This document shows, in pieces, positions 17,721-59,469 of a stretch of 64,000 bases of DNA (the stretch's first letter is position 1; every line of letters begins with the position of its first letter). This stretch comes from Naegleria gruberi (taxonomy: Eukaryota): the NCBI GenBank assembly GCA_000004985.1, contig GG738875.1; one strand, written 5' to 3'. Both the position numbers and the translations under genes were made by a program. The notes under the pieces were generated by a model. It ran no database searches. It was not told where the DNA came from and saw only the letters and a program-made list of their open reading frames with translations.

Positions 17721-17770
17721 NNNNNNNNNNNNNNNNNNNNNNNNNNNNNNNNNNNNNNNNNNNNNNNNNN
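17721..17770. other. Assembly gap
   Basis: Run of n characters. Confidence 1.
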
Positions 17771-26051: not shown

Positions 26052-26702
26052 ATGACCAAACATCAAACATTAATTTCTGCAGTTAATCTGTTTAAAACAT
26101 GTTCTTTGAAAACACCATTGTATCAAACTTATCGGAATTTGAATACCTCTAAGAGTTTAATAGTATTATTAAATAATAATTATTTATCACAAGTCCGAAG
26201 TTTTTCAAATTGTAAATTTAATACAAATATTGCTGCTTCTACATCATCACCAAGTAATAATTCATCCACCAACAACAACACCACTACAACAAAAGCAGCA
26301 CCAAAAAAGAGAAGAGCAGTAGCAAAAAAACAAGTATTAACTGTAACAGATAGAGCAGCTGAAAGATTACAATACTTGTTATCAAAGAGACCTGGAGCAT
26401 TCGGAATTTTAATTGGATTAAAAAAGAGAGGATGTAATGGACTTTCATGGACTTTTGATTACATTTTCCAAGATACAGAAATACCCAAACTTGCAGAAAT
26501 TGTAGAAGATAAGGGTGTACGATTAATTGTTCAACCAAGTGCAGTAATGAATGTTATTGGTACTGTTATGGATTATGAAGAGAATGAAGTACATGCTAAA
26601 TTTGTTTTTAATAATCCAAATGCAATTGGTACTTGTGGTTGTGGAGAATCATTTAATGTGGATACTGCTGTAAATGAACATAAACGAGTTCAAAAGATGT
26701 AA
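26052..26702 (+). CDS. Iron-sulfur cluster assembly protein, IscA/HesB family, with an N-terminal presequence
   Basis: LTVTDRAAERLQYLL...GILIGLKKRGCNGLSWTFDY...GVRLIVQPSAVMNVIGTVMDYEE...CGCGESF shows the HesB signature and the three conserved Cys. The real ATG is at 26052; the track start is a TTG. Confidence 0.85.
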   Translation: MTKHQTLISAVNLFKTCSLKTPLYQTYRNLNTSKSLIVLLNNNYLSQVRSFSNCKFNTNIAASTSSPSNNSSTNNNTTTTKAAPKKRRAVAKKQVLTVTDRAAERLQYLLSKRPGAFGILIGLKKRGCNGLSWTFDYIFQDTEIPKLAEIVEDKGVRLIVQPSAVMNVIGTVMDYEENEVHAKFVFNNPNAIGTCGCGESFNVDTAVNEHKRVQKM

Positions 26703-26716
26703 AAAACTGTATATAT

Positions 26717-29144
26717 TTATTCAACTGCAATTTCAGACAGAATAAACTCAATATCAACAGCAAATTGATGTAATTTTGATGGATCACTCGATCTAAGTGT
26801 ACAAATTGTTTCTCCTTGTTGGAAAATCTTGGCTTCAATTAAAATATAATGAGTCTCGGCTGTTTGTGTGTAGAAATAAAACATATGAGGTTCGTTTCTG
26901 ATATTACTGGCCATAGTCAGTACACTGTTTTCTCTCAACTTTTCTTCAATTTCAGCATGACTTGGTCTATCGTTAAGGCTAAATCTACATGAATGTGTGG
27001 AAGCTACAAATGATTCAGATTTCCATTTTTGTTGATATTCTTGAGGTGTTAAAGCTTGTGGAACAACAATGGCAACATTATTAGTTTCATCATAATCCAT
27101 ATCTTCCAAAAGTCTTTCTTCATAAGCTTGCTTGCTTTCCTCTTCTTCTTCCTCTTCAGCCTCTTCTTCCTCAGCTTGTTCTTCAACTTCTTCTTCATCA
27201 TCACTTCCATCATCAATAGCTTGCCCAAGAACTTCAACATCCTTTACAATAAATCTTTCGCTTGGTTTGCCATAAATGATTGAAAGAGTATTGAATTCAG
27301 AGAATAAACGATCACGGAATTCTACTGACTCTTCTTCTGAGAACTTTGTGACAACATCCTTCTTTGTCAAAACTACACTCTTAGCCAAATCAACGTTAGC
27401 AGAGATTAATCTATAATAGAACAATGCACGATCGTGAACATCAGCGTGCGAAGTATCATTTACAGCAACTTCAAAAAGTCTTCCCAACATGGCTGACATT
27501 TCAGGTGCTCTAAGGAAGAACAATTTCATTGAACTAGTTAAAATTTGATTTCTAACACTATAGTGATAAGTCAAAAATGAATCAATAAAGTTTTCTAAAA
27601 TGTATGGAGCAGCTTGAATAATATCAGCTCTACCATATTCTCCCAAAATCCAAACAAATGAAGAAATGGCTTCTGGATCTTGAAGGGTGGACCAATGTTT
27701 GGTAATTGATGGAAGGTATACTTTACAAAATTCAAGATCATTGTACTTTCTCAAAATATCTTTCAAAACAATCATAGTTTCACTAATAATATGAAGAACT
27801 CCAGAATCTAAAAAGTCAATCAAGTGAGTCAAAGAATCTTCTGTAGCAAATGAAACTCTAACAGCAATTTCACCCAATGATTTAATGGCCTTTCTAGATG
27901 TTGAAACAGAAATATCTCCCAAAGAAACATAGTAACTTAATTCACTCATTATTTCTTGGACATTCTTTTCATTAGCCAAAAGAGTCAATACTTCTAACTT
28001 TAATTCCTTCAAGTAAGTTGGATCGTTATACTTAATATAAAAATCTTTAAAGAATGGTTGGAAAACTTGTGGACATCTAGAAATCATAAACTTTAAATGT
28101 TGCAAAATTGTATAGGCAAGTTCAGGACTTGAAGTAGCAAAAAGTAACAAAACTGGGTCTCTCAATCTTCCAAAAACTCTGGTGTGATTCTTTGGCATAT
28201 TTTGTGTGTAATGTAAGAATAAGTTAGTGATGGACATTACAACTGAAGCATTTGAAATTTCCAATTTATCATCCAATAAATTCATGATATCGAAAATTTC
28301 ATCATTAGTTTCTGGCTTATATTTTAATAATAATGTAACAACTTCAGTTAATTGCCATTCGGTATATTCAGCTAACTTGTTAAGAAGGTGATAAACCATC
28401 TTTTTAGTAACATTAACTCCACTTTCTTCAATTTCATTTAAGGAACGAATAGCGTTAACAATAACTTGACAATCCTTATCCTGAATCATATCATATAATC
28501 TATCATCAAACTTTTCAGCTGAAATATTTTTAGACTCCTTAATAATATTAAAACAACCTACCTTTAACAATATTTGAAGCAAGTTTGTATAATTTAGAAA
28601 CGCTAACAACAGCAGAACGTCTAACATACGGACTTGGATCGTTTAATCCTTCCTTGATAAGAGGAACCAAGTGTTCAGTGAGTTTAGAAATTCTCAAACT
28701 GCTCAATGAACGAAGAGCCAATCCACGAACAATAGGACTTTCATCTCTACAATCTCTTGCTAAAGTGTTAATAACTAAAATTGCCAAATCAACGTTTTGT
28801 CTAGCATAGTGAGTAATATATTGATAAATCATTTTCTTTTGAACAATATCCTTTGTGTTAACACCCATGATCATTCTATCAAACAATTTACTTGTATCCA
28901 AACCCATAGTAGTAAATCCAATCACACGTTGTAATACTTCTCTCTTCTTGGTTTGGTCGTTATCGATTGTTGGATCGGATAACAATTGTTTTAATTCTTG
29001 AATTTCACCCTTCTTATCCGGAAGATTGGTATTCTTATTTTGCTTCATCAGCGAACCGACAGAGCTCATAGTCTTGCTAATCGAAGAACCTAATTGTGAG
29101 GCTCCGGAAGAGAGTGTGTCACCCAACTGTTTGATTGCACTCAT
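26717..29144 (-). CDS. ap4b1: AP-4 adaptor complex beta subunit; complement(join(26717..28518, 28562..29144))
   Basis: The N-terminal trunk reads LQRVIGFTTMGLDTSKLFDRMIMGVNTKDIVQKKMIYQYITHYARQNVDLAILVINTLARDCRDESPIVRGLALRSLSSLR and aligns closely to AP4B1. There is an acidic hinge and a conserved C-terminal appendage. The 43-nt intron runs gtaggttg...atttcag. Confidence 0.85.
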
Positions 29145-29508: not shown

Positions 29509-31804
29509 TTAATGCTCAATTTTAATAGTATGAATCATCATATCATTTCTACCTTGTTGAGTTGAAATTACTTTCCATTCAAAGGGATCTGTTATTTCAT
29601 TGGGTTGATGATTTAATTTTCCTCTCACTTGTTTCAATCCTCTCGATAATGCAAATAGAAATATTTGTCTACAATCTTTTAAATGTTGAGGGAGATGATT
29701 GTAATTTTGAGGATTACAACGAATTGCAAATTCCCCAATTTCCTTCATTGATTTAATTTCATCTCTAAGATGAATATACATATTAGGTTGTTTACAAAGT
29801 GTTGATTTCACAATTTTCAAATTAGTTTGAAATTGGATAGGTAAATTTTGAATATCTGTAAATGCACTAGTTTCAAATATTGCCTTTTCAACAAATTCTG
29901 AATCATTCAATAATTCATTACTGAAATATGAAAATGTAATACTGCTCAAATCAGCACTTTCGTAATAATTTCTTATATTTTTACAACAATCAATCAAATG
30001 CATTGCCATTTCCTTATTATTTGAATATGATTCATCCAATGTTATAATTCCTGGATTTAATTTCATTGCCACTTTGAAATAATCAGGATTCTTATAAATT
30101 GTTTCATCAAATAAAAATATATCAGTTCCATTTTCTAATACTTTTGTAATCCACTCTGGGGATGCCATCAGTTTCTCCTCTAATATCCCTTCAACTCTTA
30201 TATCAATCCCACTTTTTACAACAATATCAAATACTTCATCATCTTGAATAACNNNNNNNNNNNNNNNNNNNNNNNNNNNNNNNNNNNNNNNNNNNNNNNN
30301 NNATTTGCTTAATGAACGGAATGTTCCTTTGAAGGAGAGGTGGAAGTTTTTTGAAAAATTTAAACCCCATTTGAGAATTTTCCATATTTTCGAGGGATAA
30401 TTTAAACATTTCCATAATTGTTATGTTTGAAATATCGATTGGATATATAATGTACATTATGTTTTCTCCCCTTGATTTCACAGCTAATTGACAAAGTTCA
30501 GTATATTGATCGTAATGATAATATTTGGAATCTAACTTCTCAAATACATGTGGATGCTTTCTAATAATTTCAATGAGCTCATTATATCCAAGATAATGTT
30601 CATTGTGATGCAAAATGAGTGAAATGCCTTCAGGTACTATTGATACAATACTAGTTATGAACTCAATTTCATCCTTTGTGAATGGATTGATTCTATTTTT
30701 CCCCAAATAGGAAGAAAGATAGATGGATGAATAAAGTTCGAAATAACCAGTTGAAAAAGCTTGTCTAATAAGTGATTTATCACTTTCCAACTTATCAGAT
30801 AGTGTAACTGTTGAAACGAAATCATGCTCATAATACATTTTCCAATTAGGTATTCTCGGTTTACCATATTTTTTTCTAATATTAGTATTATCATAATGTC
30901 TAATGCAATAACTAACAAATTCTGAATCATCTTTCAAATAATTTGGCAAACAATCAAATGGTATTAAACCAAGTCGTATCAATAAATAAAATAAGTCCCT
31001 CCTATTATTGTACATTTCCATAAATTGAGCTAGTTCATTATTGTTAATGGTGCTACTGAAAAACTGTTTTAGATTTGTTAATCTCTCTTTCAACATATCC
31101 AACTCTTTAATTCCATGAGGATAAGTTGCAGATTTTAACATTAAATTTGATATTTTCTCAACATTTAAGTTTTGTAAAATTAGTTTTGGGTTTGAAGCAG
31201 CACTTTGCAATTCTTTTGAAATTTCAACCCAATTCAAATATTCCAATTTACAAAATTCATACCAAGCACTATTTAAATCCCTTCTTTCAATATCACTAAA
31301 CCATTTAAATCTTGACATTAAATTAGATAAAATTCTATGAAATCCATTTAATCTATTATCATCACAACTATCATCATGTTGTTCTTTGTGTGTCATCATT
31401 GTTCCTTTAAATTGAATTAATTCTTTACATTTTCTAAACGAAACTTCTCTCCCTCCCAAATATTTAACTCTTTTCATATAATAATTAATACATTGATTTA
31501 ATATTTGTTCATTTCCACTTGATGGTAAATCGTGAATTTGTAAAATCTTACCACTTGTCAATGGAAAGGCTAATTCAGGTTCAATCATGAATTTAATAAA
31601 TCGGAGTGTTTTAAAGTATTCATTCTCATTCATATTAAAATAATTAAATGAATTTGAAAGCATTAATGAAAACATTGAATTTGTATCGAGAAAGGAGATT
31701 ATATAGTGAAATAATTCTGTTGATAAATCACTTTGAATCATTACACCGATCATCATTTTAAAAACATTTTCCTCATCTTGTTGCATTTTTTTCAGACTGA
31801 TCAA
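29509..31804 (-). CDS. Hypothetical protein with DUF4116-like repeats; spans the 50-N gap
   Basis: The ORFs at 30239-31804 and 29509-30168 are collinear across the gap at 30253-30302. The repeats are AIRCNPQNYNHLPQHLKDCRQIFLFALSRGLKQV and LIRLGLIPFDCLPNYLKDDSEFVSYCIRHYD. Confidence 0.5.
30253..30302. other. Assembly gap
   Basis: Run of n characters. Confidence 1.
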
Positions 31805-46703: not shown

Positions 46704-47039
46704 TTTTTTCTTCTGTTGAAAATTTGACAAGTGACTTTGTTGATTGGTAACGGCTGCCTTCAAAAATGACATGACAGAACGAATAAATAGAAAGGAATGC
46801 GTCAAATGGATCTTGTTCAATTTTACTTGAGTTTTTTGTTCGTTCACAAATTTTCTTCTAATATCAAACTAGTAGTATGATTCGAACGAATCATTTGGCG
46901 CCATTTTTATTCATCAATGTTTACACTGTAAATTCCAAGCCTCGAGGCTTTCTTGTTAAAAATAGCGAACTTTTACAACAAATAAGTCCTCACTGTTAAA
47001 GTCTTGCGTTTTAATTTTCCAATTTTTAAAAGAAAAAAA

Positions 47040-50000
47040 ATGCCACCAAAGAAGAGGAATATTAATTATGATGATGACGACGATGCTGATGAAAACGATA
47101 ATGCAGGAAATGAGAGTTTAATTGTTCGGGAGCGATTAAATTTTGCTAACCGAAGCAGTAATGGATCATCTTCGGGTGGTGGTAGTGTAGGATCATCGAA
47201 TAGTACTAATCAGTGGTGTGCTTTTAATATTGGTGATAAATCGGAGAATGATATTGAACGTGTGATGATTGCCTACTTGGAAAAGTATCACTTGCAAGAT
47301 ATTAGAGATATTTTGTGTCCTCCTCTCACTCTAACAAATGATGATACAATTCACTATAGTGTATTTATTGATGTTTCACATTTCATGTCTGCAAATATTG
47401 AAATTGGATCAATTTTATTATCATACCCAACAGAATTAATTCCTATTTTTGAGAGAGCACTGATTAAAACACAGCAACGTCACATTGAAAAACAAGAAGT
47501 TATGAAGGAACAATTTAAATTGAAAACATTTGTGCATGTTAGACTTCATACGTTACCACAATGTTCCGAAGTAACAAAAACATCAGTGAGATCTGTGAGG
47601 AGTTGTGACGCTAATAGATTAATTTCTGTCAGTGGTACTGTCATTAAAACAGGGCCTATCAAAATGTTGGAGTATAAGAAGATTTATATTTGTAAAAAGT
47701 GTAAAAAGTCATTTGATATTGTTGCAGATAGAGAACAATTTAATAGTATAACGAAACCAACACAATGCCCAATTGAAGATTGTGGAGGAAAATCATTTAT
47801 TTCGAGAGAGGATGAAATTGTTTGTAGAGATTATCAGGAAATCAAAATTCAAGACAAAATTTCACAACTACATGTTGGTTCAATTCCTCGTTCCATTCTT
47901 GTAGTTTTGGAAGATGATTTAGTGGATGTTGTAAAAGCTGGAGATGATGTAATTTTAACAGGAATACCTTTCAGAAGATGGAAAACTTTTAAAAACGATG
48001 CTAGATGTGGTGTTGATATGGCTGTATGGAGTAATCACATTCGTATTGGAAATGAAAAGAAGAGTGCAATGAACGTTACAGAAGAATTGAAATCAGAATT
48101 TAAACACTTTTGGGAAAAGTATAAGGAGAATCCATTGGCAGGAAGAAGCTTAATTTTGAAGAGTATGTGCCCTCAATTATTTGGATTGTACTTTGTCAAG
48201 TTGGCAGTTGCGTTGACTATTATTGGAGGAGTACCAATGAAAAAGAATAATACACGTATTAGAGGAGAGTCACATTTATTGATTGTTGGTGATCCAGGTA
48301 CTGGAAAAAGTCAATTTTTGAAATATGCCTCTAAATTGAGTCCCAGATATGTAATGACAAATGGAATTGGTACAACTAGTGCCGGTCTGACAGTTATGGC
48401 TTCAAAAGAGTCTGGAGGAGATTGGGCCCTTGAAGCAGGTGCTCTTGTTTTGGCTGATGGAGGAGTTTGTTGCATTGATGAATTTGATGCTATCAGAGAA
48501 CATGACAGAGTAACCATTCACGAAGCTATGGAACAACAAACCCTCAGTATTGCAAAAGCTGGTTTAGTTTGTAAATTGAATACGAGAACAACTGTTTTGG
48601 CAGCATGTAATCCAAAGGGAAAGTATGATTTGGAAGCAAGTATTTCTGTAAATTGTGCACTTGCTAGTCCATTGTTGAGTCGTTTTGACATTGTACTTGT
48701 ACTTTTAGATTCCCAAGATGAAGAGTGGGACAATAGAGTTTCATCATTCATTCTCAATGAGCAACAAATGGAAGAGGAAGATTCTCAGTTATGGTCATTT
48801 GATAAGTTGAGAGCTTATATTTCCTATATCAAATCAGAATATCATCCACAAATACCGCCAGAAAGTGGTAGAATCTTAACAGAATACTATAGACTTCAAA
48901 GAAGAGCTGACAGAAGAGTTGCTGCAAGAACAACTATTCGTTTGCTTGAGTCTTTAGTTAGATTAGCCCAAGCTCATGCCAGACTCATGTGTAGAAAAGA
49001 GGTTACTGTCCAAGATGCTGTAATGTCTGTATTAACTGTTGATATTTCTTCCAATACTTCATCTTTACTGAATGTTTCATCTGTACTTCATTCTAATTTC
49101 CCAGACGATCCAGATAGTGATTATAAGGGTTATATTGAAATGGTTCTTTTCAAGTTAGGTATTGGTTTACAAGATCCTAGAACTGTTAATTTTTCAATGC
49201 CTCCTCAAAATCAAAGACAACAAATCACACAAAAGAAACCAACACAACAAGCCACTCAAAGAGAAGAAAGAGTGGATGAACCCTTAATAGACGATGATGA
49301 TGACCAAGTTGATTTTGGTTTTACTGATGATGAACCTCAACCTGAACAAGTTACCAGTCATGCTGTGAGAACTCCAACAAAACCTAATCAAGGATCATCC
49401 AAACGTAAAATTGAGCATCACCAGGAAGAGCCTGAAGAGGATTATCGATCTCCACAAAAAAAGAAGAAAAGTGTCTTCTCAACCCAAGATCTAGAAGAAG
49501 TAGAAAATGATATTCATAGAACACCTTCTCTTCCTTCAAATCGTAACCTAAACAATTTTAAAGAGCATTTGAGATCTAAGGGAAAGGATTTGGAAACATC
49601 AGAGCTCCCTCAACCTCCAAAACCTATTGAGCCACCAAGGTCTATTTTACAAAAACCTCAAGCTCCACCAATTGTTGAAAAAACCTCCTCTTCTGTCCAA
49701 TTTAACAAACCTTCACCACCTCCACAACAACAAAATGTACAGCAACCAAAAGATAATATCCCTAGTATAAATCCACCCCCTTCAAAACCACCTTCCAGAC
49801 AAACTCCTCAAGATATTATTCCTCCAGTAACCAATAATCAACAACAGCCTACAAAACCAGCCCAACAAGCAACTCCACAAACAGGAAGAGGTAGAAGTTT
49901 ATTATCTAATCTTGGTTCACGAACTAATCAAGTAGCTCAACAACCTCCACCCCAACAATTTCAACAACCTCCACGACCAGCTCAACCAGCTACAGATCAA

Positions 50001-50159
50001 CCTCAAAAGGATGATTCATTTGAATTACCAGAATCGTTTACGTTAGGAGATGATACCAGCTTCTTACTAGACGCAACCCCAACCAAACCATCCAATAGCT
50101 CTGGAAATAATTCTAAAAGACTTATTGATGATAATGATGAGCTTGATGGACTAATTTAA
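47040..50159 (+). CDS. mcm9: DNA helicase MCM9
   Basis: A zinc motif is present: CKKCKKSFDIV...CPIEDCGG. The MCM AAA+ core reads IRGESHLLIVGDPGTGKSQFLKYASKLSPRYVMTNGIGTTSAGLTV...ALVLADGGVCCIDEFD...SRFDIVLVLLD and is near-identical to the MCM9 Walker A, Walker B and arginine-finger region. A long P/Q-rich C-terminal extension follows. The real ATG is at 47040. Confidence 0.9.
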   Translation: MPPKKRNINYDDDDDADENDNAGNESLIVRERLNFANRSSNGSSSGGGSVGSSNSTNQWCAFNIGDKSENDIERVMIAYLEKYHLQDIRDILCPPLTLTNDDTIHYSVFIDVSHFMSANIEIGSILLSYPTELIPIFERALIKTQQRHIEKQEVMKEQFKLKTFVHVRLHTLPQCSEVTKTSVRSVRSCDANRLISVSGTVIKTGPIKMLEYKKIYICKKCKKSFDIVADREQFNSITKPTQCPIEDCGGKSFISREDEIVCRDYQEIKIQDKISQLHVGSIPRSILVVLEDDLVDVVKAGDDVILTGIPFRRWKTFKNDARCGVDMAVWSNHIRIGNEKKSAMNVTEELKSEFKHFWEKYKENPLAGRSLILKSMCPQLFGLYFVKLAVALTIIGGVPMKKNNTRIRGESHLLIVGDPGTGKSQFLKYASKLSPRYVMTNGIGTTSAGLTVMASKESGGDWALEAGALVLADGGVCCIDEFDAIREHDRVTIHEAMEQQTLSIAKAGLVCKLNTRTTVLAACNPKGKYDLEASISVNCALASPLLSRFDIVLVLLDSQDEEWDNRVSSFILNEQQMEEEDSQLWSFDKLRAYISYIKSEYHPQIPPESGRILTEYYRLQRRADRRVAARTTIRLLESLVRLAQAHARLMCRKEVTVQDAVMSVLTVDISSNTSSLLNVSSVLHSNFPDDPDSDYKGYIEMVLFKLGIGLQDPRTVNFSMPPQNQRQQITQKKPTQQATQREERVDEPLIDDDDDQVDFGFTDDEPQPEQVTSHAVRTPTKPNQGSSKRKIEHHQEEPEEDYRSPQKKKKSVFSTQDLEEVENDIHRTPSLPSNRNLNNFKEHLRSKGKDLETSELPQPPKPIEPPRSILQKPQAPPIVEKTSSSVQFNKPSPPPQQQNVQQPKDNIPSINPPPSKPPSRQTPQDIIPPVTNNQQQPTKPAQQATPQTGRGRSLLSNLGSRTNQVAQQPPPQQFQQPPRPAQPATDQPQKDDSFELPESFTLGDDTSFLLDATPTKPSNSSGNNSKRLIDDNDELDGLI

Positions 50160-51323
50160 AGTTAAAACTCCAACACTATTATAAAATACCAACAAATATT
50201 GGTCTGATGAGTCATGTTTGTGAATAAAAATAACTTTCTTCCCAATTTTGACTCTTGAAACCACTTTGTAATTTTCTTCAATATCAATCTTGTTGATTAT
50301 TGAGATTTTTTCCTCTGGTAAATATTCTACAAACAAGATTTTCTTGCCATCAACTAGTGAATGAAGTATTTGATGTTTGTTTTTTCTTGAAGTAAAATCT
50401 GCAACTAGTTCAATCTTTTCAGTAATGGTGTTGAAAATAAAAATACATCCTGAATTCTGAATCAAAACCTTTCCAACATCTACTCGTTGAATATTATTGT
50501 ACGAAGCGTTTGTCGTTGGAATGCAAGGAAAGAAGAATTCATCACACTTTTTGAAAACAGCTTTCTTATTCCCTGGATCTGTTTCTACTAAATCAATGTA
50601 CGTGTATTTCACTGTTGTTTCACTAAGCATAATCAAACATTCCTTTTTAGAATCTATTTTAACAGATTTAATCTTATAAATTGATTTGTCAAATAATTTC
50701 TCACTAACTGCACGGGCCGTATTGGTCATGAAAACCACACAAGTAATTCTTCCACTGAAAAATTCGAATTAAATCCGTAAAACCAATACTTACTGATCAC
50801 TTGATAGATACCAAACATTTTTATCTATCGAACTAGGAGTAAATGATCTTATTTTCTGGCATGAAAAATCTGAAAACTCCAGAGTCAATCTAATATTCTG
50901 GAATGAATCCAACAATGTAAATTTAGGAATAAAAGTATCTCCCACAAGTGTATAAGATCCAAATGTGTGTAAATATAAATTTCCATTTGAAAGATTCTTC
51001 TTTTCCAATCCCAATGATTTATAATCCTTGATTTTAGGGTCATCTATTCCAATTCCATCTTCTTTTTTGGTCAATCCAACTAAACAAATTTGATTATTAT
51101 TATAAAAAACCATTTTGGCGGCTCCCTTAATACATCCAACCAAGTTATCAATGGGAATTTGAACTTCTGGAATTCTCTTAGGTATTGGTGATAGTGAAAA
51201 GTTTTTCTCTTTCATAATTACAATATGTTGATCGAATTGATAGGGTTTGCATTTCTTTTGAGGAGATTCCTCAGCTAATCTTGTTGTCACAGTTTTTCTT
51301 TTTGGTGTCTTAGGATGATCCAC
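50151..51323 (-). CDS. Hypothetical protein; complement(join(50151..50754, 50794..51323)); 5' end unresolved
   Basis: A 39-nt intron gtaagtattgg...ttttcag joins the ORFs at 50790-51323 and 50151-50738 in frame (...SSDH|GRITCVV...). The listed M at 51323 is a GTG. The frame is open further upstream without an ATG. No domain is recognised. Confidence 0.45.
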
Positions 51324-51439
51324 TGTATCATTGATTGTTTGAGAAGTTGATGCTGAGGCATATGACGTCGAGGTAGAACTTTGGTTTGCTGTTGTTTGAG
51401 AATAAATGTGAGATTGAAGGGTGGGTAGTTCTACGTTAA

Positions 51440-52203
51440 TTACATCTGTCCTCCTAATTCCTCAAAGCATTCCTCATCAACTATTTGAGAAATAGATTTA
51501 AATTGCACATCACTTGACTCTCCAATTGTGACAATAGCTCCTTTATCAGGTCTGGATTGATTTGATTTAGGCTTTTTTGTAATCATATTGGGTGATGTTT
51601 CAATTCTTGTTTGTGACTTGGGATGTAAAAAGTGTTGTGTATGATAATTAATAAATTTTTCCTTGGCATCTTGAAAATCAAATTGTCTAACCTTAAATTC
51701 AGCTTGAAGTTGTTTCACTCTCATATGATACGGGCCATTATTTATACGAAACAAGTTGACAACCTCATTAATTCTTTCCATTACTTTTTTACTAGCTCCA
51801 ATATTCTTACTATTATGAATTTAATGAGTTTAAATATGACTTTGATTACTAACTTTGCAATTTCATATATTAAATGTGTTTGTAATAATGAAAGAATGCA
51901 ATCCTTGACTGATTTTACTACATTTCCATCATTGGATAAATACCTGGAAATATAACAAAAACCATGATCAAATTCATTATTTTCTACAAAATCCAATAAA
52001 TGTTCAATGTTAAAGTGGTTTGTCTCCCTGTCAAATTCTTGTTTAATAGAATATAATTTTCTAATCTGTAAATAATTACTAATAAATAAATCAACACTAG
52101 AAATAAATTCCTGGTCTGTTGCTACCAATTGTCTAATTTCCGATAGAGATGGAAAAATGTAACCAGTAGTTGTTGTAGAAAAACCCTCTTCTTGTTGGGA
52201 CAT
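51440..52203 (-). CDS. Hypothetical 239-aa protein; complement(join(51440..51809, 51854..52203))
   Basis: ATG at 52203. A 44-nt intron gttagtaatc...ataatag joins ...LIYEIA|NKNIGASKKVMERINEVVNLFRINNG... to the C-terminus ...EECFEELGGQM*. Confidence 0.5.
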
Positions 52204-52266: not shown

Positions 52267-53308
52267 TTATTGTTTCTTTTCTTCAGCCTTCTTTTGCATC
52301 TTCTTCATGAGACCAGAAAGGAAACCCTTCATTTGCTTCATCAAGAATGATTCAGGAACCAAAGCCAACAAACTGACAACCAAATCATGTGGCCAGTAAG
52401 CAGAAGTCAAACCATAGCTGACACCGAATGGACAACCAATAATATCAACACATGATCTAGCATAAACAGTAGCTTCTGGCTTCATCAAAGTAGCTCTTCT
52501 AACCATAGTCATGTCAGACTTGACCCACATTGGAGAAAGACCATAAACTTCCATCTTTGGAGCTTCATATTTCAAAGCAAGACTGAAAGCATTAATGAAT
52601 GACTTGGTAGCAGCATAAACAGTCATCAATGGAGTTGGATATTGAGCAGTATATGAAGAAAGATTCAAAATAGTACCTCTTTCATTCATGATTGGCATAA
52701 TAGCTCTGGTAACACTCAAAACTGAATGAAGGTTAACCTTGATAAGCTTATCAAAATCACTTTCTGGTTGTTCAGTGAATGGGAATGGAGAATTGTTAGT
52801 ATTATTAATACCAACATTGTTAACCAAAACATCAACCTTGTTGTTACCAACAACATTCAACAAGGCTTGTTTGATTTCTTCTCTTGAAGCCTTTTCGAAA
52901 TCAACAATAGCAATAGAAACTTGATTCTTATACTTGGTTTCGAGAGTATTCTTCAAGTTTTGTCCCTTTTCTTCGTTTCTGGCAACAACAATAACGTTGG
53001 CTCCACGTCTACTGAATTCATGAGCAAATCCTTCTCCGATACCTATTATTTAATAATAATATAATTAATAATATTTCATCAGAAATTAATTGTCATCATT
53101 AATCGGCCAATTATGATTAATAAAAACACCACTCTCTAATAAACCTACCAGAAGTAGCACCAGTAATCAAAACATTCTTTCCTCTGTAATTAGTTGAATT
53201 CTTATAGATGAAGTGAGCATAGATAAAACCAACAACCTTCTTGAGCAAGACAAGGCCAAGGATGACACCCAATGTGTAAACGACGCAGGAAAATCCACAA
53301 CAAGACAT
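52267..53308 (-). CDS. Very-long-chain 3-oxoacyl-CoA reductase (HSD17B12/KAR-like short-chain dehydrogenase); complement(join(52267..53042, 53149..53308))
   Basis: There is an N-terminal TM segment. The Rossmann motif is GKNVLITGATSG|IGEGFAHEF. The catalytic motif is NLSSYTAQYPTPLMTVYAATKSFINAF (YxxxK). The C-terminus is Lys-rich (KKMQKKAEEKKQ). The 106-nt intron runs gtaggttt...aataatag, and the protein is 311 aa. Confidence 0.85.
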
Positions 53309-53521
53309 TTTTTATTTTCGATCCTCGTTGCTTGAATTGTTCATGGAGAATCTCACACTTTTAAATATTTCACACACAAAACACCTCCACAAATTGTGAA
53401 TCATATTGATGGTTCAATATTAAATTGACAGTTGGTGGGGGTAATACTTTTGCAACGAATAGTAAGGATGATGACTGTTCATTTGATGTCCTCTTATTTA
53501 GTGGTTTGTCAATATAATGTA

Positions 53522-54619
53522 CTATACTTTGAAATGAGTCCATGGAATGGAATTGCTCTTATTGATTTCAGAGTCATTTTCTGGCATGAATAATGGATCT
53601 GTATCTCTGTAATAGTAATGAATATTTCCTTGATTATCCATTAGAATGATTGTTTGGGATCTGGTTTTAAAGTAGGTCTTATTTACATAAATGTTGTAAT
53701 GTGAGTCAAGTCGTGATCTGAAATGAAGAGGACCAGCACCGTCTTTCATAAAGTGTTGTGGAATCAGATTCAACAGGGATGGGTCTTTGCTATGATCCAG
53801 TTGTTCAATGTTTGTAAGGTGATTGATAATTTGTTCTTCCTCCTTGAAATGTTCTCTGAATCTATTAGTAATACATTTTTCTAATTTTTGGAGCATTACA
53901 TCTGGATCTGTGATTTCTCTATTTTCTTTCACAGTTTTTTCAAGTAAATTCTTGAGAAGATCAAGTTTGTATTTCTTATAAAGTTCATTCCTACAATCAT
54001 CCAAATATGTATTTGAAACAATGTGAATCTCATTATTGATCTCCTCAATTTTGTAATAGTTTAGGAGATTTTGAGCTTGATCATCTCTATTGGTCATGTA
54101 AAACATTGGATTTACGCCATCCAGATTTCCCATAATAATGTTAAATCCTCGCATGTGTTTTTCTTCTCCAAAATATTGATCGAGAACATTTTTCCTTAAT
54201 TCTTCAATTTCAATTGAGGATTTCAATTTTTTTGGAAATAAACAAATTCCATTCACAATAAATCCTCTAGAAATCAAATGATCTGTATCTGCAGTTGGAC
54301 CAAATACATTTGTCAACACAACCATATTCTTTGTATCTAAATTGAGACTATTTACAATTAAATTTGGAAAATAAATGAAAACAAACCCCATCCATGTTCC
54401 TCCCTCTTTCTTATCAATACATGAGAGAATTCTAAATCCTGTTTGAGAATCTACTCTGATATCAATTTCACCTGTAGATCTAAGTGGATCTTCATCTCTA
54501 AAATTTTCAATCAAAAAAAAATTAATTTTTTAAAAATCCAAAAATAACTCATACCTATTGTCAACCAAAATGAAAGGGAAGTAAGGGTGAAATGATTGAA
54601 TACACCCTACAATACACAT
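53522..54619 (-). CDS. TANGO2 (NRDE family) homolog; complement(join(53522..54497, 54555..54619))
   Basis: Exon 1 encodes MCIVGCIQSFHPYFPFILVDNR, matching the MCI start and NRDE motif. Exon 2 encodes DEDPLRS...KKEGGTWMGF...SQTIILMDNQGNIHYYY. The 57-nt intron runs gtatgagtt...aattttag. Confidence 0.8.
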
Positions 54620-54636
54620 TTTTTTTATTTTTAATT

Positions 54637-54993
54637 TTATTCCAATTGTTTCTTCTTGAGTAATGCATCAATTTGTTGATTTGCTTGAGCCAATTCTCCA
54701 TACCATTCATGATGGTGCATATCAGCATATTGCTTATCTCCTCTAAGTGGACTAGAATTGGAGAGTGGGAACAATACGTCACTAGTAATTTTATTAATTT
54801 GATGTTCGGCACTCTTGAAGGTTGATCTATTAAAATCAACACAAGAATTAATTGGTACACATTCAATAGCATACATTCCGATGATGATGAAGATTACAGT
54901 TATATTAATAACAATAAATATATAATGAACATGAATCAAAAAAACATACCCAAACACTGATTTGACTACTCCTCTCGCCAAAGCACACAACAT
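54637..54993 (-). CDS. Small 77-aa protein with a presequence-like N-terminus; complement(join(54637..54826, 54950..54993))
   Basis: The start is ATG TTG TGT GCT..., encoding MLCALARGVVKSVFG. A 123-nt intron runs gtatgttttt...ttttaatag. The second exon encodes STFKSAEHQINKITSDVLFPLSNSSPLRGDKQYADMHHHEWYGELAQANQQIDALLKKKQLE*. The stop lies 17 bp upstream of the TANGO2 ATG. Confidence 0.45.
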   Translation of the reverse strand: MLCALARGVVKSVFGYVFLIHVHYIFIVINITVIFIIIGMYAIECVPINSCVDFNRSTFKSAEHQINKITSDVLFPLSNSSPLRGDKQYADMHHHEWYGELAQANQQIDALLKKKQLE

Positions 54994-55094
54994 TTTTCTA
55001 AAATTGATTTCTTCTATTTGTTGTGTAGCGTTAATTTGATGGCACGTGAAGAAAAACAACAAGAAGCAAATTAAAAGGCGCAAAGTGAAAAAAA

Positions 55095-58000
55095 ATGATA
55101 TCGACACCACAAAAACGTTCCTCTCGAAGAAACATCTCTTCGGGGCCAACATCACTTTCTGGTGGATCGTCATCTCACGCAACAAATAGATCAAGCCATC
55201 AAAAGTTACTTCAATTTATTGAACACATTAAATTCGAGACTAACAAGGATAAATTAAATCACTACCTACAACAAATTGATGATATTTTGATCAGCACAAC
55301 AGAAAGGTATGTTAATAGTAAAATTTGCTGGAAATTGGAAATTATTGTGTAGTGATAATGACTTGGTAAACGAATATTTGCCTAAAATTCTTCAGATTCA
55401 ACATCCTGTGCACCCTCAAGATTTTAAACTTTTCCTTTCTCTCTTGATTGAAAAAGTTATGAACAAGGTTCAAAATGTTTCTGTTGAAAATACAAAGAGT
55501 TGTGCTGAAACATTGTCTTTAATTCTGATTTCTACTGATAGTACAAACTTGATGAAGCGTATTATTACAACAAGTATTTCAATTGTTAGGAAATCTATTG
55601 AATTAATTACTCTGGATCCAAACAACAAGCATAATAGTATTTTATTCAGTCACATGTCACTTTTGATTAAGAGAATTTTGAGTTATATTGATAAGGATAA
55701 TGAAGGTATTCAAACTCATGCTGTACATTTTATTGAAAATTTAATTTTAATGTACAGTAGTATTAATAAGTCAAATATGGAAATCAATGAAGAAAACCTT
55801 TCGAACCTCTTATCTTACCTTCAACTTTCTGGTAACACCTACAAGGTTCAATATATAGATCCTTACCCAATTGACTTGAGCTTTGTTTCAAGTTATGCAG
55901 AGAATGGTAAAGTTGGATGTTTCAATGTTGAAAATATGAGAGATGAAGGAGCAAGATATTTGGAAAAATTGATTGAAAAATTTAAAAAGGAGGATTGTCC
56001 ATCATCTGTAATTTCAGTCATCATCCAAGCTTTACTGAATATTGCAAAACAAAGACATGGATTTTGGAACACAATTATTCCTTTCCTTTCTAATCAGGCT
56101 TACTATTATTTGGGAAAAGGTAGAACTAACAACACACAAAAACAAACTTTGAAGACTTTATTGAAAACAGCTATTTTGTTTTTATTGAAAATGCCAGAAA
56201 CTAGACACAAATGGAGACCAACTATTCTTCATGGATTGGGTGAGCTTGATGTAAGCAATACTTCGATCGGAATGATTACTAAATTTGTGGATAAACATAC
56301 TACAGTTTTAAAAAGAAAGGAACCACCTGCAGAGGAAAAAGAAGCCAAGGTTAGGAAGAATGATATCTCTCAAGCTTCTCAAAATCAAACTGGAGCTCAA
56401 CCTACTCAAGATTTGGAGCCTACATCAGTTTTATATATCAGCTATGTTCCAAATGCTATGACTAACGTTGAGCTGGCAAATACAGTTCTTGGAAATCTTT
56501 CTCGAATTGAATCAAAATCTAATAGACCACCTAAGAATCTTGAGAATAGTAATCAATTGGTTGGTGTCGTTATGTCTGCCCTCTCTAGTCACTATAAGAA
56601 AGGTAATACATATTCTTCAGAAGAACAGCAACAATATATGAGTTCCGTACAATTATACTTATCAGAACCTATTCCATCATTCAACTCTAGTCTTGTCACA
56701 GTATCTGTACTCCAACAACAAGCAAATCCTTATCAAGCTAGACAAGTTGCTACAACACCTTACGGAAGAAGTCCATATAGCAGAGCTGCTCCAGTCCAAT
56801 CACAAAAAGCTGACCCAAGACTTACCCAAAAAGATCCAAGAACAGCATATGTTCCTGATAAGAGTAATGCTTTCAGTTCTAATCAATCTAAAGCCTCTGG
56901 AGATGATTCTGATGAGGAAGAGGTTGTCACATACAAACAACAAACAACTGTCAAACAAGAAAAGGTTGCTGAGCCAGTTGAAGAAGATGTTAAGGAGGAT
57001 TTATCAAAACAATTCAAACTTAAATTATCTATTGTTGATGATAACTGCAAACAACAACTCAAAAAATTCAATTGGAACAAGATGTTAATGAATGAAAAGG
57101 GGATGAAAAGAGAAGGAAAAGATCACTATAGAATTAAGCTCATTTGTCTTATGGCTGTAAGAAGTGCCGAAACAGACGAGCAATATCAACAACTCTACAA
57201 TTTCATTAAAGAGGATGTTAAGGGCCGATTCTCACTACTCATGATGTGGTTGTATATGGAGTATAAACACTCCATTGAACAAGAATATAATGTCAAAAAA
57301 GAAGAAAGTTCCGAAAATAGATATACAAGACTTTTCCACAAGTTTTTACTCAGTTTCGATAAGAGTGAAAGTATTCTTGCCAGATTTTTGGTTCAATCTC
57401 CACACATTACGCAATATACATTGGATTATATTTGTAAAGATCTTTGTGAAAGCGATAATTACATAGGACATGGACTAACAGCTCTAAGAGATATAGTTAT
57501 TTACAGACAAAATTTAAGAGAAAGGTGTTTGAATATGTTACTAAATTATGGTATTCACCAAAACTCTAAGATTCGTACACCTGCAATCCAGATTTTGCGT
57601 GATAAAACTCTGTATACTTTATTTGAGAAAGAAATTACCGACTTTGCATATTCAAGTATTATGGACATGAAACCTCTAATTGAGCAATCAACTTCAACTG
57701 ACGAAATGGTAGATGAACAAGAATCAAGCACTGATGCTAATAATGAAATTATTAAGAGGTACAGCTCCCTTTATTTGGCTCTTAGCTCGTCGTATTGTGA
57801 AGCAACATTTGAGAAACTCCTTAATGATGTTTATGCTAACTACAAGAGTTCAGAAAATATGGAGCCAGTTGTAGCAGTCTTGGAGAAAGACATTTTAAGT
57901 ACTGTGAAATCGAGCTTGAACAGAGCAACTGTGATACAGTATTTGAAAAATTTCAAGGAGGCCGAGTGTCTCGATATTAGTATTAAGATTATGCAACAAT

Positions 58001-58782
58001 TATCACTTCAACCACAAGGTATTGATGAAAATCTCTCCAAGGTGCTCATTTACACATTTTTCGAAAGAAACATCAAAGATCCAAGAATGGTTTTACCTAT
58101 TTTGTCTCAATTAACCAAAGAACAAGCCAAGGAAGCCCTTCCAATCGTTTTCAAATCTGTTACTGATGTTGAATTACTAAAAAAGAATATTATCAGTATG
58201 GTGACAGCCAATTCAAAGGCCGAGAAGAGTGACAAGCTTTCAGGAGATGAAATTCTTGTAATTTTACATCAAATAGAGGCCAATAGTGAAGTACAATCTG
58301 TGGCATTTAATAATACAAGAAATGTACTTGATGCATGTCTTATTGGAGATGGAAAGCAACTATTCACTTCACAAATGTTGAAAACAGCTCTCCAACAAAT
58401 TGTTGATATTGTACCAGTACCAAAGTTAGTTATAAGAACAGCTATTCAATCTTTGAACTTGCATAACGGTTTAGCTCAATTCCTTCTCAAATTTTCTTTC
58501 CCATCTCTTATCAAAAAGAGAGCCTACGAAAGCAAGACAATATTGTTTGGTTTAGCAAAGTGTCTCTCTGATAAGCTAACCTTATTCCAACCACCAAAAG
58601 TAGTAGAGTTCCTTTTAGACTTGGGAGAATTGAGTGAAACTGCCTTGTTGGAAGTATTAGAACAGCAAAACCTTAGAGATTTATTTAAGGAAACTATTCA
58701 AATTCAGCAGCATCCAAGAGCTTCACACTATAATTCTCTTTTAGCCAACCAACAAACAACAAGTGGTGCTGAACAAAAGTAA
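55095..58782 (+). CDS. Large (about 1213 aa) helical-repeat (HEAT/ARM-like) scaffold protein, possibly symplekin/Pta1-like; join(55095..55306, 55353..58782)
   Basis: A 46-nt intron gtatgttaatag...ttgtgtag joins MISTPQKRSS...ILISTTE to SDNDLVNEYLPKILQIQHP.... The protein has long predicted helical repeats and Ser/Gln-rich linkers. The symplekin assignment is only tentative. Confidence 0.55.
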
Positions 58783-58801
58783 ATAATAATTTATGTTTTT
58801 T

Positions 58802-59469
58802 TTACTGATTTGAAGATGACATTTTGGTGTAAATATGTTTCATAACTGTAGAAATAAAGTGTTTTTGTCTATATATACAATCTTTTAAGCAATCTGCTTC
58901 CTTAGGTGCTAAATGTTCTGTGGTTTTTTCCATAGTTTTAAATCTATCGTATTCATCCAATGGATTCAGATAATACTGACTAACACATCTCTCATAACAT
59001 AACCCTGTCAAATAAGCTTGTTCCAAATATTTATCCTTTTCAATATTAGCCTTATGTTTCAAGTCATCCATGTGTTGATTGAAAAATAATTGTTGTTGCA
59101 TCATGAATTGCTCTGGATTCATATACATAAAATTAGGATCATAATAATTGTTATAAGACATTCCGAAATTATTAAAATTATTATTCATTGAATCTTGAGG
59201 AAAATTAAAACCAGACATATCCGTTGTTGTCCAAAATTATCGTTTGTCATCATATTATTTTGCACATCTTGTTGTTGGAATGAATTATTAATATTATTAT
59301 TATTATTATTGCTGGTAGTAGGACTTGTTGTGAAAGGTAAGAATGGTGATTCCGCATAAAACTTTCCTACAAATCCTTTAGTTGTCGGAGAAATAGCTGG
59401 TGGATTTTGATTGAGAATGTTTGTGTCGACGTTTACTTCGTCCATTTTTTTATTGTTGTTTTCAATCAA
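58802..59469 (-). CDS. Asn-rich protein with a C-terminal twin Cx3C motif (small-Tim-like); two overlapping frames, so a probable frameshift near 59185-59218
   Basis: The Cx3C pairs are GLCYERCV and CLKDCIY, separated by 31 aa. The upstream ORF at 59185-59469 is collinear but in a different frame. Confidence 0.4.

What the first reader, a model, noticed from the sequence alone, without database searches (positions are those of the whole stretch)
54619..54993. Tandem same-strand genes only 17 bp apart (small presequence protein, then TANGO2)
The stop of the 77-aa gene is at 54637 and the TANGO2 ATG is at 54619, both on the minus strand. The TANGO2 promoter would have to lie inside the upstream gene, unless the two are co-transcribed. 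The whole 50-55 kb stretch is five minus-strand genes with spacers of 17 to about 210 bp.
Basis: seen in the sequence. Interest (0 to 1): 0.5.

Follow-up and report, generated by a model that had tools for sequence, protein, structure and literature searches.

The report
Two Naegleria genes 17 bases apart
In the amoeba Naegleria gruberi, a conserved but unannotated 77-residue gene stops 17 bases before the TANGO2 start codon, most likely as two separate, overlapping transcription units in a genome already known for ultrashort UTRs, so it is ordinary for this organism.

Summary
On the minus strand the small gene's TAA ends at 54637 and the TANGO2 ATG is at 54619, so 17 nt (AATTAAAAATAAAAAAA) lie between them. 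An independent assembly of another strain has the same junction.

The window is Naegleria gruberi. Both genes are real:
- TANGO2 matches Pfam PF05742 (E=4.7e-30).
- The 77-aa protein has orthologues in N. fowleri, N. lovaniensis, a third Naegleria and Willaertia. They share an intron position, and dN/dS is 0.06.

The tight spacing is not conserved: 17, 131, 816 and 1060 nt in four Naegleria. An opposite-strand DUF4112 gene sits between the two genes in N. fowleri and N. lovaniensis. In Willaertia the two genes lie on different contigs.

The small gene's stop codon lies inside an AATAAA, and a second AATAAA follows. N. gruberi is published to use such "dual-use" stops, with 3'UTRs of about 22 nt. 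Its mRNA should therefore end at about the TANGO2 start codon.

The best reading is two overlapping but independent transcription units. A functional dicistronic mRNA is unlikely but cannot be excluded without RNA data. This is an extreme case of a known property of this genome, of modest interest.

The parts
54950..54993 (-). Small gene exon 1 (44 nt; MLCALARGVVKSVF + 2 nt). It encodes the basic, acid-free, presequence-like leader.
   Evidence: Sequence. The model was reproduced by script. Exon 1 is 44 nt and phase 2 in N. fowleri and N. lovaniensis as well, 38 nt in the third Naegleria and 32 nt in Willaertia.
54827..54949 (-). Small gene intron (123 nt, GTATGT...AATAG). It is in frame and free of stops, so ORF callers read through it.
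   Evidence: GC is 0.24, against 0.36-0.46 in the exons. Strain L001 has a 2-nt deletion plus 3 substitutions here, which would frameshift a coding reading. The intron position is conserved in five species while its length varies: 123, 101, 57, 37 and 50 nt.
54637..54826 (-). Small gene exon 2 with the stop TAA (54639-54637). It holds the conserved core ITSDVLFPL..P.R.DKQY.D.HHH.W...AN.
   Evidence: Alignments A1 and A2. Orthologues P0006 and P0007. dN/dS is 0.056 between N. fowleri and N. lovaniensis.
54636..54641 (-). AATAAA hexamer overlapping the stop codon (GA-ATAA-A), a 'dual-use' stop/poly(A) signal.
   Evidence: Sequence. N. gruberi uses AAUAAA, and 11-13% of its stop codons overlap it, with a median 3'UTR of 22 nt (PMC11529991). 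Seven of the 14 stop codons inspected (the small gene's plus 13 others in this window) are embedded in AATAAA or ATTAAA.
54620..54636 (-). The 17-nt spacer AATTAAAAATAAAAAAA. It contains ATTAAA (54635-54630), a second AATAAA (54629-54624), and the A-run that precedes the TANGO2 ATG.
   Evidence: The A-run context is shared by almost all of the 28 gene starts listed. The spacer has no AG and no pyrimidine tract, so it has no 3' splice or trans-splice acceptor (read from the sequence).
54637..54647 (-). AATTGGAATAA: the last codons plus the stop of the small gene. The same 11-mer lies upstream of N. fowleri TANGO2, and its core ATTGGAA lies 13-27 nt upstream of the TANGO2 ATG in all four Naegleria.
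   Evidence: sequences; a shared non-poly-A 7-mer appears in 5 of 20000 shuffles; the 7-mer occurs about once per 3.4 kb in the window, so it is not a general promoter element. Any role as a TANGO2 5' element is inferred.
54599..54619 (-). TANGO2 codons 1-7 (ATGTGTATTGTAGGGTGTATT). They are GU/U-rich and are the predicted downstream element and cleavage zone for the small gene's mRNA.
   Evidence: Sequence. U-rich downstream elements are reported for N. gruberi (PMC11529991). A 22-nt 3'UTR would end at about 54615. This is inferred.
54555..54619 (-). TANGO2 exon 1 (MCIVGCIQSFHPYFPFILVDN + AG of the R codon).
   Evidence: Pfam alignment starts at residue 1. Orthologue alignment A3.
54498..54554 (-). 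TANGO2 intron 1 (57 nt, GTATGA...TTTTAG, GC 0.14). It splits the NRDE motif.
   Evidence: All indels between the two strains in this area fall inside it. The third Naegleria has no intron here and reads VDNRDEDP continuously.
54387..54497 (-). TANGO2 exon 2.
54348..54386 (-). TANGO2 intron 2 (39 nt, GTTTGT...AAATAG, in frame and stop-free). This is newly proposed. Removing it deletes a 13-aa insert found only in N. gruberi.
   Evidence: Alignment A3: WMG[VFIYFPNLIVNSL]NLDTKN in N. gruberi against WMGFNADTKN, WMGYNLTTHN and WMGLNKDYKN in the orthologues. The boundaries were read.
53522..54347 (-). TANGO2 exon 3 with the stop TAG (53524-53522). The mature protein is 333 aa.
   Evidence: Both differences between strains here (54344, 54284) are synonymous (codon positions read).
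54994..55094 (.). The 101-nt divergent spacer between the small-gene ATG and the symplekin ATG (55095, + strand).
   Evidence: Symplekin exon 1 (55095-55306) is 69% identical to the N-terminus in the third Naegleria (E=2e-19). The equivalent spacer there is only 40 nt.

Best explanation
These are two independent protein-coding genes of Naegleria gruberi whose transcription units physically overlap.

The upstream gene encodes a 77-aa protein found only in Naegleria and Willaertia. It is helical, His-containing and probably targeted to an organelle. It is transcribed from the 101-nt region it shares divergently with symplekin, and it is spliced once.

Its mRNA is cleaved and polyadenylated under the direction of an AAUAAA that contains its own stop codon, backed up by an AUUAAA and a second AAUAAA in the 17-nt spacer. 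The mRNA should therefore end about 20-35 nt past the stop, in the first few codons of TANGO2.

TANGO2 is transcribed separately. Its start site would lie at or just upstream of the small gene's stop codon, giving an A-rich leader of roughly 27 nt or less. Its core promoter would then lie inside exon 2 of the small gene.

The arrangement is a lineage-specific collapse of an intergenic region that is 131-1060 nt in other Naegleria. It is not an operon.

Shown: the coordinates, the reality of both genes, the signals present, and the comparative spacing. Inferred: the positions of the RNA ends and the location of the promoter.
For: 1. Both genes are real and separately conserved.
- TANGO2 matches PF05742 at E=4.7e-30.
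- The small protein is 48-62% identical in four other species.
- Its intron position is conserved, and dN/dS is 0.056.

2. The adjacency is loose in relatives.
- The spacer is 17 nt in N. gruberi, 131 nt in the third Naegleria, 816 nt in N. lovaniensis and 1060 nt in N. fowleri.
- A minus-strand DUF4112 gene (PF13430, E=6e-20) lies between the two genes in N. lovaniensis and N. fowleri. TANGO2 must have its own promoter there.
- In Willaertia the genes are on different contigs.

3. Poly(A) signals lie between the ORFs: AATAAA over the stop, then ATTAAA, then AATAAA. Nanopore direct RNA sequencing of N. gruberi found AAUAAA as the top signal, a median 3'UTR of 39 nt, 11-13% dual-use stop codons with a median 3'UTR of 22 nt, and U-rich downstream elements (PMC11529991). 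Seven of the 14 stop codons inspected (the small gene's plus 13 others in this window) are dual-use.

4. ATTGGAA lies 13-27 nt upstream of the TANGO2 ATG in all four Naegleria (5 of 20000 shuffles). In N. gruberi it coincides with the small gene's last codons.

5. Overlap of neighbouring units is routine here.
- Convergent CDS ends lie at -9, 14 and 19 nt.
- A tandem spacer of 63 nt exists.
- Divergent ATG-ATG spacers are 101 nt here and 40 nt in the third Naegleria.

6. Heterolobosea show no directional gene clusters or other genomic signs of polycistrony (bioRxiv 10.64898/2026.07.29.740908).
Against: - No transcript data for this locus could be reached, so no TSS or poly(A) site is actually mapped.
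- Naegleria promoters are uncharacterised. Workers still use about 1 kb of upstream DNA for transgenes (PMC12845041).
- If the TANGO2 TSS lies upstream of the AATAAA hexamers, they would sit in its own 5' leader and would have to be ignored there.
- The upstream UGUA auxiliary element reported for N. gruberi is absent before this signal.
- The ATTGGAA match in N. gruberi can also be read as the small gene's own C-terminal codons. CAA TTG GAA aligns in frame with CAA [AAC AAT] TCG GAA of N. lovaniensis, so its status as a TANGO2 element is uncertain.
- This is the tightest tandem junction in the window, so it is an outlier even here.
Confidence: 0.7

Rival explanations
1. Functional dicistronic mRNA. 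One transcript from the small gene's promoter carries both ORFs. TANGO2 is translated from it by termination-reinitiation 17 nt after the small ORF's stop, or by leaky scanning.
For: The two ORFs are only 17 nt apart on the same strand, with no room for a conventional promoter. The order small gene then TANGO2 is kept in four Naegleria. Read-through multi-gene transcripts are documented in other compacted eukaryotic genomes, for example E. cuniculi (PMC2803860).
Against: - Three poly(A)-signal hexamers lie between the ORFs, in an organism that uses AAUAAA efficiently.
- The upstream ORF has 77 codons, and six further AUGs precede the TANGO2 AUG in the spliced mRNA. By the established scanning rules (my own knowledge), leaky scanning is implausible and reinitiation after such a long ORF with a 17-nt gap is inefficient.
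- The spacer has no AG or pyrimidine tract for trans-splicing.
- In N. fowleri and N. lovaniensis an opposite-strand gene intervenes, and in Willaertia the genes are on different contigs. Coupling is therefore not ancestral.
- Heterolobosea show about 2 genes per directon, with no polycistronic signature.
Confidence: 0.08
2. The small ORF is not a gene. It would be a chance ORF, or a regulatory upstream ORF or 5' leader of TANGO2, so there is only one gene here.
For: It has no Pfam hit. No homologue was found outside Naegleria and Willaertia in 5.8 billion and 1.84 billion protein searches. It is absent from the N. gruberi protein set. The AlphaFold model has low confidence (pLDDT 63).
Against: - It is 48-62% identical across five species, as well conserved as TANGO2 itself.
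- dN/dS is 0.056.
- The intron position and phase are conserved while intron lengths diverge.
- It is annotated independently in N. fowleri, N. lovaniensis and Willaertia.
- In Willaertia it sits next to MCM9, on a different contig from TANGO2.
Confidence: 0.02
3. Shared promoter with alternative splicing. TANGO2 mRNA would start at the small gene's TSS and skip exon 2 by splicing exon 1 to an acceptor near the TANGO2 start. This might add the presequence to TANGO2.
For: Exon 1 encodes only a targeting-like leader. TANGO2 is linked to mitochondria in animals (my own knowledge).
Against: There is no AG in the 17-nt spacer. The first AG downstream is TTGTAG|G, in TANGO2 codons 3-4. Joining phase-2 exon 1 there gives GGG GTG TAT TCA..., which runs into TGA after 15 codons and is out of frame with TANGO2 (read). 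The conserved N-terminal Met-Cys of TANGO2 would be buried by such a fusion.
Confidence: 0.02
4. Assembly or sequencing artefact. A deletion in the draft scaffold would have collapsed a longer intergenic region.
For: The window is a draft scaffold with several N gaps. At least one homopolymer indel differs between the two strains elsewhere, at 59223.
Against: An independent short-read metagenome assembly of another strain (two assemblers, L001 and L002) has the identical junction.
Confidence: 0.01

Closest known systems
Ultrashort 3'UTRs and 'dual-use' stop codon/poly(A) signals in N. gruberi and Giardia (Genome Res 2024, PMC11529991)
   Same: AAUAAA overlaps the small gene's stop codon. The spacer available (17 nt) is close to the published median 3'UTR for such genes in this species (22 nt). 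The same stop/signal overlap is seen at 6 of the 13 other stop codons checked in this window, counting both AATAAA and ATTAAA.
   Different: That paper describes 3' ends genome-wide. It does not describe a downstream same-strand start codon falling inside the predicted 3'UTR. The small gene is unannotated in the assembly they used, so it was not in their set. The upstream UGUA element they report is missing here.
Overlapping transcription in compacted eukaryotic genomes, for example microsporidia (E. cuniculi, PMC2803860)
   Same: Intergenic spacers are shorter than the UTRs they must hold. 5' leaders are very short. Promoter or termination signals lie in neighbouring genes. Read-through transcripts are possible.
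   Different: N. gruberi is free-living, with a genome of about 41 Mb (my own knowledge), and is not a reduced parasite. Its other intergenic spacers in these loci are about 60-430 nt. No RACE data exist for this locus.
Polycistronic transcription units of Euglenozoa and dicistronic genes of other eukaryotes
   Same: Same-strand ORFs lie very close together, in a member of Discoba, the supergroup that contains the polycistronic kinetoplastids.
   Different: There is no trans-splice acceptor in the spacer. Poly(A) signals lie between the ORFs. The adjacency is not conserved. Heterolobosea lack directional gene clusters.
TANGO2 / NRDE family (Pfam PF05742)
   Same: The downstream gene matches the profile end to end, with N-terminal Met-Cys and the NRDE motif.
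   Different: Nothing unusual. The public N. gruberi model (267 aa) lacks the N-terminal 66 residues.

Membership tests
TANGO2 (PF05742) | Profile match above the curated gathering score over most of the domain | tested here: met
   106 bits against a cut-off of 22.6, E=4.7e-30, profile positions 1-254 of 257.
TANGO2 (PF05742) | N-terminal Met-Cys and the conserved N-R-D-E motif (family hallmarks from my own knowledge of the family) | tested here: met
   MCIVG... and VDNR|DEDP, with the motif spanning intron 1. Both are invariant in alignment A3.
Eukaryotic dicistronic / operon-like unit | A single mature transcript carries both ORFs | not testable with these tools
   No transcript-derived contigs or proteins for this locus exist in the searched collections.
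Eukaryotic dicistronic / operon-like unit | No cleavage/polyadenylation signal between the ORFs | tested here: not met
   AATAAA (over the stop), ATTAAA and AATAAA all lie within 54641-54624. AAUAAA is the N. gruberi signal.
Eukaryotic dicistronic / operon-like unit | A route for ribosomes to reach the second AUG: few or no intervening AUGs, a short upstream ORF, or a trans-splice acceptor | tested here: not met
   The upstream ORF has 77 codons and six further AUGs precede the TANGO2 AUG. The spacer has no AG or pyrimidine tract.
Eukaryotic dicistronic / operon-like unit | Tight adjacency conserved in related species | tested here: not met
   Spacers are 17, 131, 816 and 1060 nt. An opposite-strand DUF4112 gene lies between the pair in two species. 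The genes are on different contigs in Willaertia.
Dual-use stop codon / poly(A) signal (N. gruberi, Giardia) | The species' poly(A) hexamer overlaps the stop codon | tested here: met
   GA-ATAA-A at 54641-54636, with the stop at 54639-54637.
Dual-use stop codon / poly(A) signal (N. gruberi, Giardia) | Cleavage about 20 nt downstream, giving an ultrashort 3'UTR | not testable with these tools
   This needs 3' RACE or direct-RNA reads. The published median for such genes is 22 nt.
Overlapping transcription units of compact genomes | The inter-CDS spacer is shorter than the UTR lengths typical for the species | tested here: met
   17 nt against a median 3'UTR of 39 nt, or 22 nt for dual-use stops.
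Overlapping transcription units of compact genomes | The downstream gene's TSS maps inside the upstream gene or its UTR | not testable with these tools
   No TSS data were reachable. Only a conserved ATTGGAA element at -13 to -27 suggests where the 5' region lies.

The most novel reading that the evidence does not exclude
The small gene and TANGO2 of N. gruberi would be expressed from one dicistronic mRNA, with TANGO2 translated by termination-reinitiation across a 17-nt gap. This would be an operon-like unit that arose recently, by loss of the intergenic DNA, in a heterolobosean. Heterolobosea are the monocistronic sister lineage of the polycistronic Euglenozoa. A weaker variant is a functional link between the conserved-His small protein and TANGO2, given that the gene order is kept across Naegleria.
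Probability: 0.07. Interest if true: 0.6.

Novelty: new member of a known kind. Interest (0 to 1): 0.25.

Why it matters
The main value is for annotation and as an example.
- A conserved 77-aa gene is missing from the public N. gruberi gene set, and the public TANGO2 model is truncated at its N-terminus. The tight junction is therefore invisible in the current annotation.
- It is a clean natural test case for how far two Pol II units can be compressed in a free-living eukaryote. A stop codon, a poly(A) signal and the neighbour's 5' leader share the same 20-30 nt.
- Comparison with three other Naegleria shows the collapse is recent: 1060 to 17 nt, with the intervening DUF4112 gene absent from this locus.
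- It could help define the still-unknown Naegleria core promoter, which would be useful for the emerging transfection systems.

It does not point to a new mechanism.

Tried and rejected
- **Organism:** I first took it for a dictyostelid from composition. The TANGO2 search showed it is N. gruberi.
- **Unspliced 118-aa reading of the small gene:** the intron is in frame and stop-free, with a TM-like stretch. I rejected this because strain L001 has a 2-nt deletion there, GC is low, and intron lengths in the orthologues are not multiples of three.
- **Identity of the small protein:** nothing significant came from Pfam, PDB sequence profiles (best hit ferritin, E=0.05), 5.8 billion word-indexed proteins or 1.84 billion representatives. 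One weak repetitive 3233-aa hit, P0008, has no Pfam domain. The AlphaFold model shows two helices at pLDDT 63. That is too weak for a fold search, so none was run.
- **Transcript evidence:** No transcript-derived clusters appeared for either gene.
- **RNA genes:** Rfam found nothing in 53400-55400, so there is no intronic snoRNA.
- **ATTGGAA as a general promoter motif:** rejected. It is not upstream of other genes and is only mildly over-represented in the window (38 against 27 expected).
- **Literature:** I found nothing on Naegleria TSSs, promoters or 5'UTR lengths. The N. gruberi genome paper is not held.
- **Low-GC 'island' at 10-22 kb:** largely explained by assembly gaps.
Full report
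**What is there**

On the minus strand the sequence reads ...AAA CAA TTG GAA TAA-AATTAAAAATAAAAAAA-ATG TGT ATT GTA GGG....
- The TAA occupies 54639-54637.
- The next ATG is at 54619-54617.
- Exactly 17 nt lie between them.

My script reproduced it.

The downstream gene is TANGO2. The spliced product matches Pfam PF05742 from profile position 1 (E=4.7e-30), and intron 1 (54554-54498) splits the NRDE motif.

An independent metagenome assembly of a second strain (L001/L002) is 99.4% identical over 6.3 kb and has no difference from 54819 to 54529. The junction is therefore not an assembly error.

**Organism and reality of the two genes**

The TANGO2 protein is 100% identical to a 'predicted protein' of Naegleria gruberi. 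Its next relatives are N. fowleri (52%), an unnamed Naegleria from a metagenome (50%, here 'sp5') and Willaertia magna (37%). The public N. gruberi model (267 aa) starts at MVVLTNVFG, so it lacks the true N-terminus.

The small protein has no Pfam or PDB relative. Its only exact-species hit is a read-through ORF from the second strain. It does have clear orthologues:
- an annotated 84-aa gene in N. fowleri (sequence);
- an 82-aa gene in N. lovaniensis and an 83-aa gene in Willaertia;
- an unannotated copy in sp5.

Identity is 48-62%, the same level as for TANGO2. All five share a phase-2 intron at the same place in the N-terminal leader, while intron length varies (123, 101, 57, 37 and 50 nt). 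Over the 52-codon core, N. fowleri against N. lovaniensis gives dN=0.024 and dS=0.43, a ratio of 0.056.

Between the two N. gruberi strains:
- the intron carries a 2-nt deletion and three substitutions;
- exon 1 has one synonymous change;
- exon 2 has one replacement;
- both changes in the TANGO2 CDS are synonymous.

So both are real, selected genes, and the N. gruberi small gene is simply missing from the annotation. Its N-terminus is presequence-like: 17-21 residues with no acidic residue, 2-4 K/R, and apolar runs of 6 or fewer. Targeting was not tested with a trained predictor. The AlphaFold model shows two helices at low confidence.

**Comparative anatomy of the junction**

The order symplekin (opposite strand), small gene, TANGO2 holds in four Naegleria. 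The stop-to-ATG spacer varies widely:

| Species | Spacer (nt) |
|---|---|
| N. gruberi | 17 |
| sp5 | 131 |
| N. lovaniensis | 816 |
| N. fowleri | 1060 |

In N. fowleri and N. lovaniensis the spacer holds an unannotated gene on the opposite strand of the DUF4112 family (PF13430, E=6e-20). It is absent from the whole N. gruberi window. In those species TANGO2 must therefore be driven by its own promoter.

In Willaertia the small gene is followed after 93 nt by MCM9, and TANGO2 lies on another contig behind a CoA-transferase. Tight coupling is thus a derived state in N. gruberi, not a conserved requirement.

**Signals in and around the 17 nt**

The small gene's stop codon is embedded in AATAAA (54641-54636). 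ATTAAA (54635-54630) and a second AATAAA (54629-54624) follow. The first TANGO2 codons (AUGUGUAUUGUAGGGUGUAUU) are GU/U-rich.

Nanopore direct RNA sequencing of N. gruberi (PMC11529991) found:
- AAUAAA is the main poly(A) signal;
- the median 3'UTR is 39 nt;
- 11-13% of stop codons overlap AAUAAA ('dual-use'), with a median 3'UTR of 22 nt;
- U-rich downstream and UGUA upstream elements assist.

In this window, 7 of the 14 stop codons I inspected are embedded in AATAAA or ATTAAA. By inference, the small gene's mRNA ends at about 54615-54600, in the first codons of TANGO2.

One expected element, the upstream UGUA, is missing. The spacer has no AG or pyrimidine tract, so trans-splicing of a polycistronic precursor is not possible at this site.

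**A conserved element before TANGO2**

Almost every gene start in these loci is preceded by a run of 5-8 A. Further upstream, the four Naegleria TANGO2 genes share ATTGGAA, 13-27 nt before the ATG. The 11-mer AATTGGAATAA is identical in N. gruberi and N. fowleri.

A shared non-poly-A 7-mer arises in 5 of 20000 composition-preserving shuffles. The motif is not found before other genes and occurs about once per 3.4 kb in the window. In N. gruberi it is the last two codons plus the stop of the small gene.

A caution applies. The same N. gruberi bases also align in frame with the small gene's own C-terminus in N. lovaniensis (AAA CAA [AAC AAT] TCG GAA against AAA CAA TTG GAA). N. fowleri has AATTCGGAA at the small-gene end and AATTGGAA upstream of TANGO2. 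One reading, which is inference only, is a deletion between these two short repeats that removed everything in between.

**How unusual is it here?**

It is the tightest same-strand junction in the 64-kb window. The next is 63 nt. Tandem spacers in the annotated relatives are 90-434 nt.

The locus is nevertheless full of near-touching units:
- the MCM9 and opposite-strand CDS ends overlap by 9 nt;
- IscA and beta-adaptin stops are 14 nt apart, and the symplekin stop and an opposite ORF's stop are 19 nt apart;
- the small gene and symplekin start codons are 101 nt apart, and only 40 nt apart in sp5.

UTR overlap with neighbours is therefore normal in this genome, and leaders must be very short.

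**Mechanism**

I judge two independent, overlapping transcription units most likely (confidence 0.7). The small gene terminates through its dual-use signal at about the TANGO2 start. TANGO2 initiates at or just before the small gene's stop, from a promoter embedded in the small gene's last exon.

A functional dicistronic mRNA (0.08) is disfavoured by:
- the poly(A) signals between the ORFs;
- the 77-codon upstream ORF and six intervening AUGs;
- the comparative data above;
- the absence of any polycistronic signature in Heterolobosea.

Occasional read-through transcripts, as in microsporidia (PMC2803860), are compatible with the main model but would not be the productive TANGO2 mRNA.

None of the RNA ends is measured. 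Naegleria promoters are uncharacterised, and I could reach no transcript data.

**Other gene-model points**

TANGO2 has a second, 39-nt, in-frame, stop-free intron (54386-54348). Removing it deletes a 13-residue insert that no orthologue has, giving a 333-aa protein.

Symplekin starts at 55095 with a 212-nt first exon.

No start codon in the usual context exists between 51440 and 51323, and the downstream frame is open across the upstream stop.

**Verdict**

This is an extreme but expected product of a known property of N. gruberi, namely ultrashort UTRs and dual-use stop codons. Its added value is for annotation and as a test locus for promoter mapping. Interest is about 0.25, and I class it as a new member of a known kind.

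Noticed in passing
window 11178-12740, 14468-16038, 17721-17770, 19845-21127, 30253-30302: These are runs of N (assembly gaps). They produce the apparent 5-10% GC bins and the long 'ORFs' open on both strands around 14-16 kb.
   Followed up: yes
window 1-23000, especially 441-2312 (+): The left third of the window is genuinely lower in GC (15-25% excluding N) than the rest (28-38%). The ORF at 441-2312 is a family-A DNA polymerase (PF00476, E=2e-82) in a segment of only about 15% GC, with very Asn/Ile-rich coding nearby. The reason for the compositional break is unexplained.
   Followed up: partly
window 50151-50159; 26702-26717; 58782-58802: Convergent genes almost touch or overlap. The MCM9 (+) and minus-strand CDS ends overlap by 9 nt. 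IscA (+) and beta-adaptin (-) stops are 14 nt apart. The symplekin (+) stop and a minus-strand ORF's stop are 19 nt apart. Their 3'UTRs must run antisense into the neighbour's coding region.
   Followed up: partly
window stops at 52267, 26717, 33877, 59556, 24251, 33648, 54637: Seven of 14 inspected stop codons lie inside AATAAA or ATTAAA. These are 'dual-use' stop/poly(A) signals, well above the 11-13% reported genome-wide for AAUAAA alone. The sample is small and chosen by hand.
   Followed up: partly
L003 5100-5745 (-) and L006 5451-5979 (-): An unannotated two-exon DUF4112 gene (PF13430) lies on the opposite strand between the small gene and TANGO2 in N. fowleri and N. lovaniensis. It is absent from the N. 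gruberi window and from the sp5 contig.
   Followed up: yes
window 54348-54386 and 54827-54949 (-): Two N. gruberi introns (39 nt in TANGO2, 123 nt in the small gene) are multiples of three and free of stops. Prokaryote-style ORF callers therefore read straight through them, as in the 79-aa call P0001 and the 330-aa ORF.
   Followed up: yes
window 53522-54619 (-) compared with P0002: The public N. gruberi TANGO2 model (267 aa) starts at an internal Met and lacks the Met-Cys N-terminus and the NRDE motif. The 77-aa neighbour has no entry in the N. gruberi protein set.
   Followed up: yes
window 59223; ORF 58802-59218 (-): A 1-nt homopolymer indel between the window and strain L001 changes the ORF downstream of the PfkB kinase from 138 aa (window) to 214 aa (L001). 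It is either a draft error or a real polymorphism or intron.
   Followed up: no
window 51323-51464 (-): There is no ATG in the usual A-run context for the ORF 50790-51323. Its frame stays open across the stop of the upstream ORF (51440). The two may be one gene, or the draft may have a frameshift.
   Followed up: partly
L007 5001-8356: In Willaertia magna the small gene is followed after 93 nt by MCM9. MCM9 is also only about 5 kb from the small gene in N. gruberi (47004-50159). This is a trace of older micro-synteny that does not involve TANGO2.
   Followed up: no
28 gene starts in window, L003-L007: Nearly every start codon in Naegleria and Willaertia is preceded directly by 5-8 A, often as TAAAAA(A)ATG. 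This is useful for start-codon calling and hints at very short A-rich leaders.
   Followed up: partly
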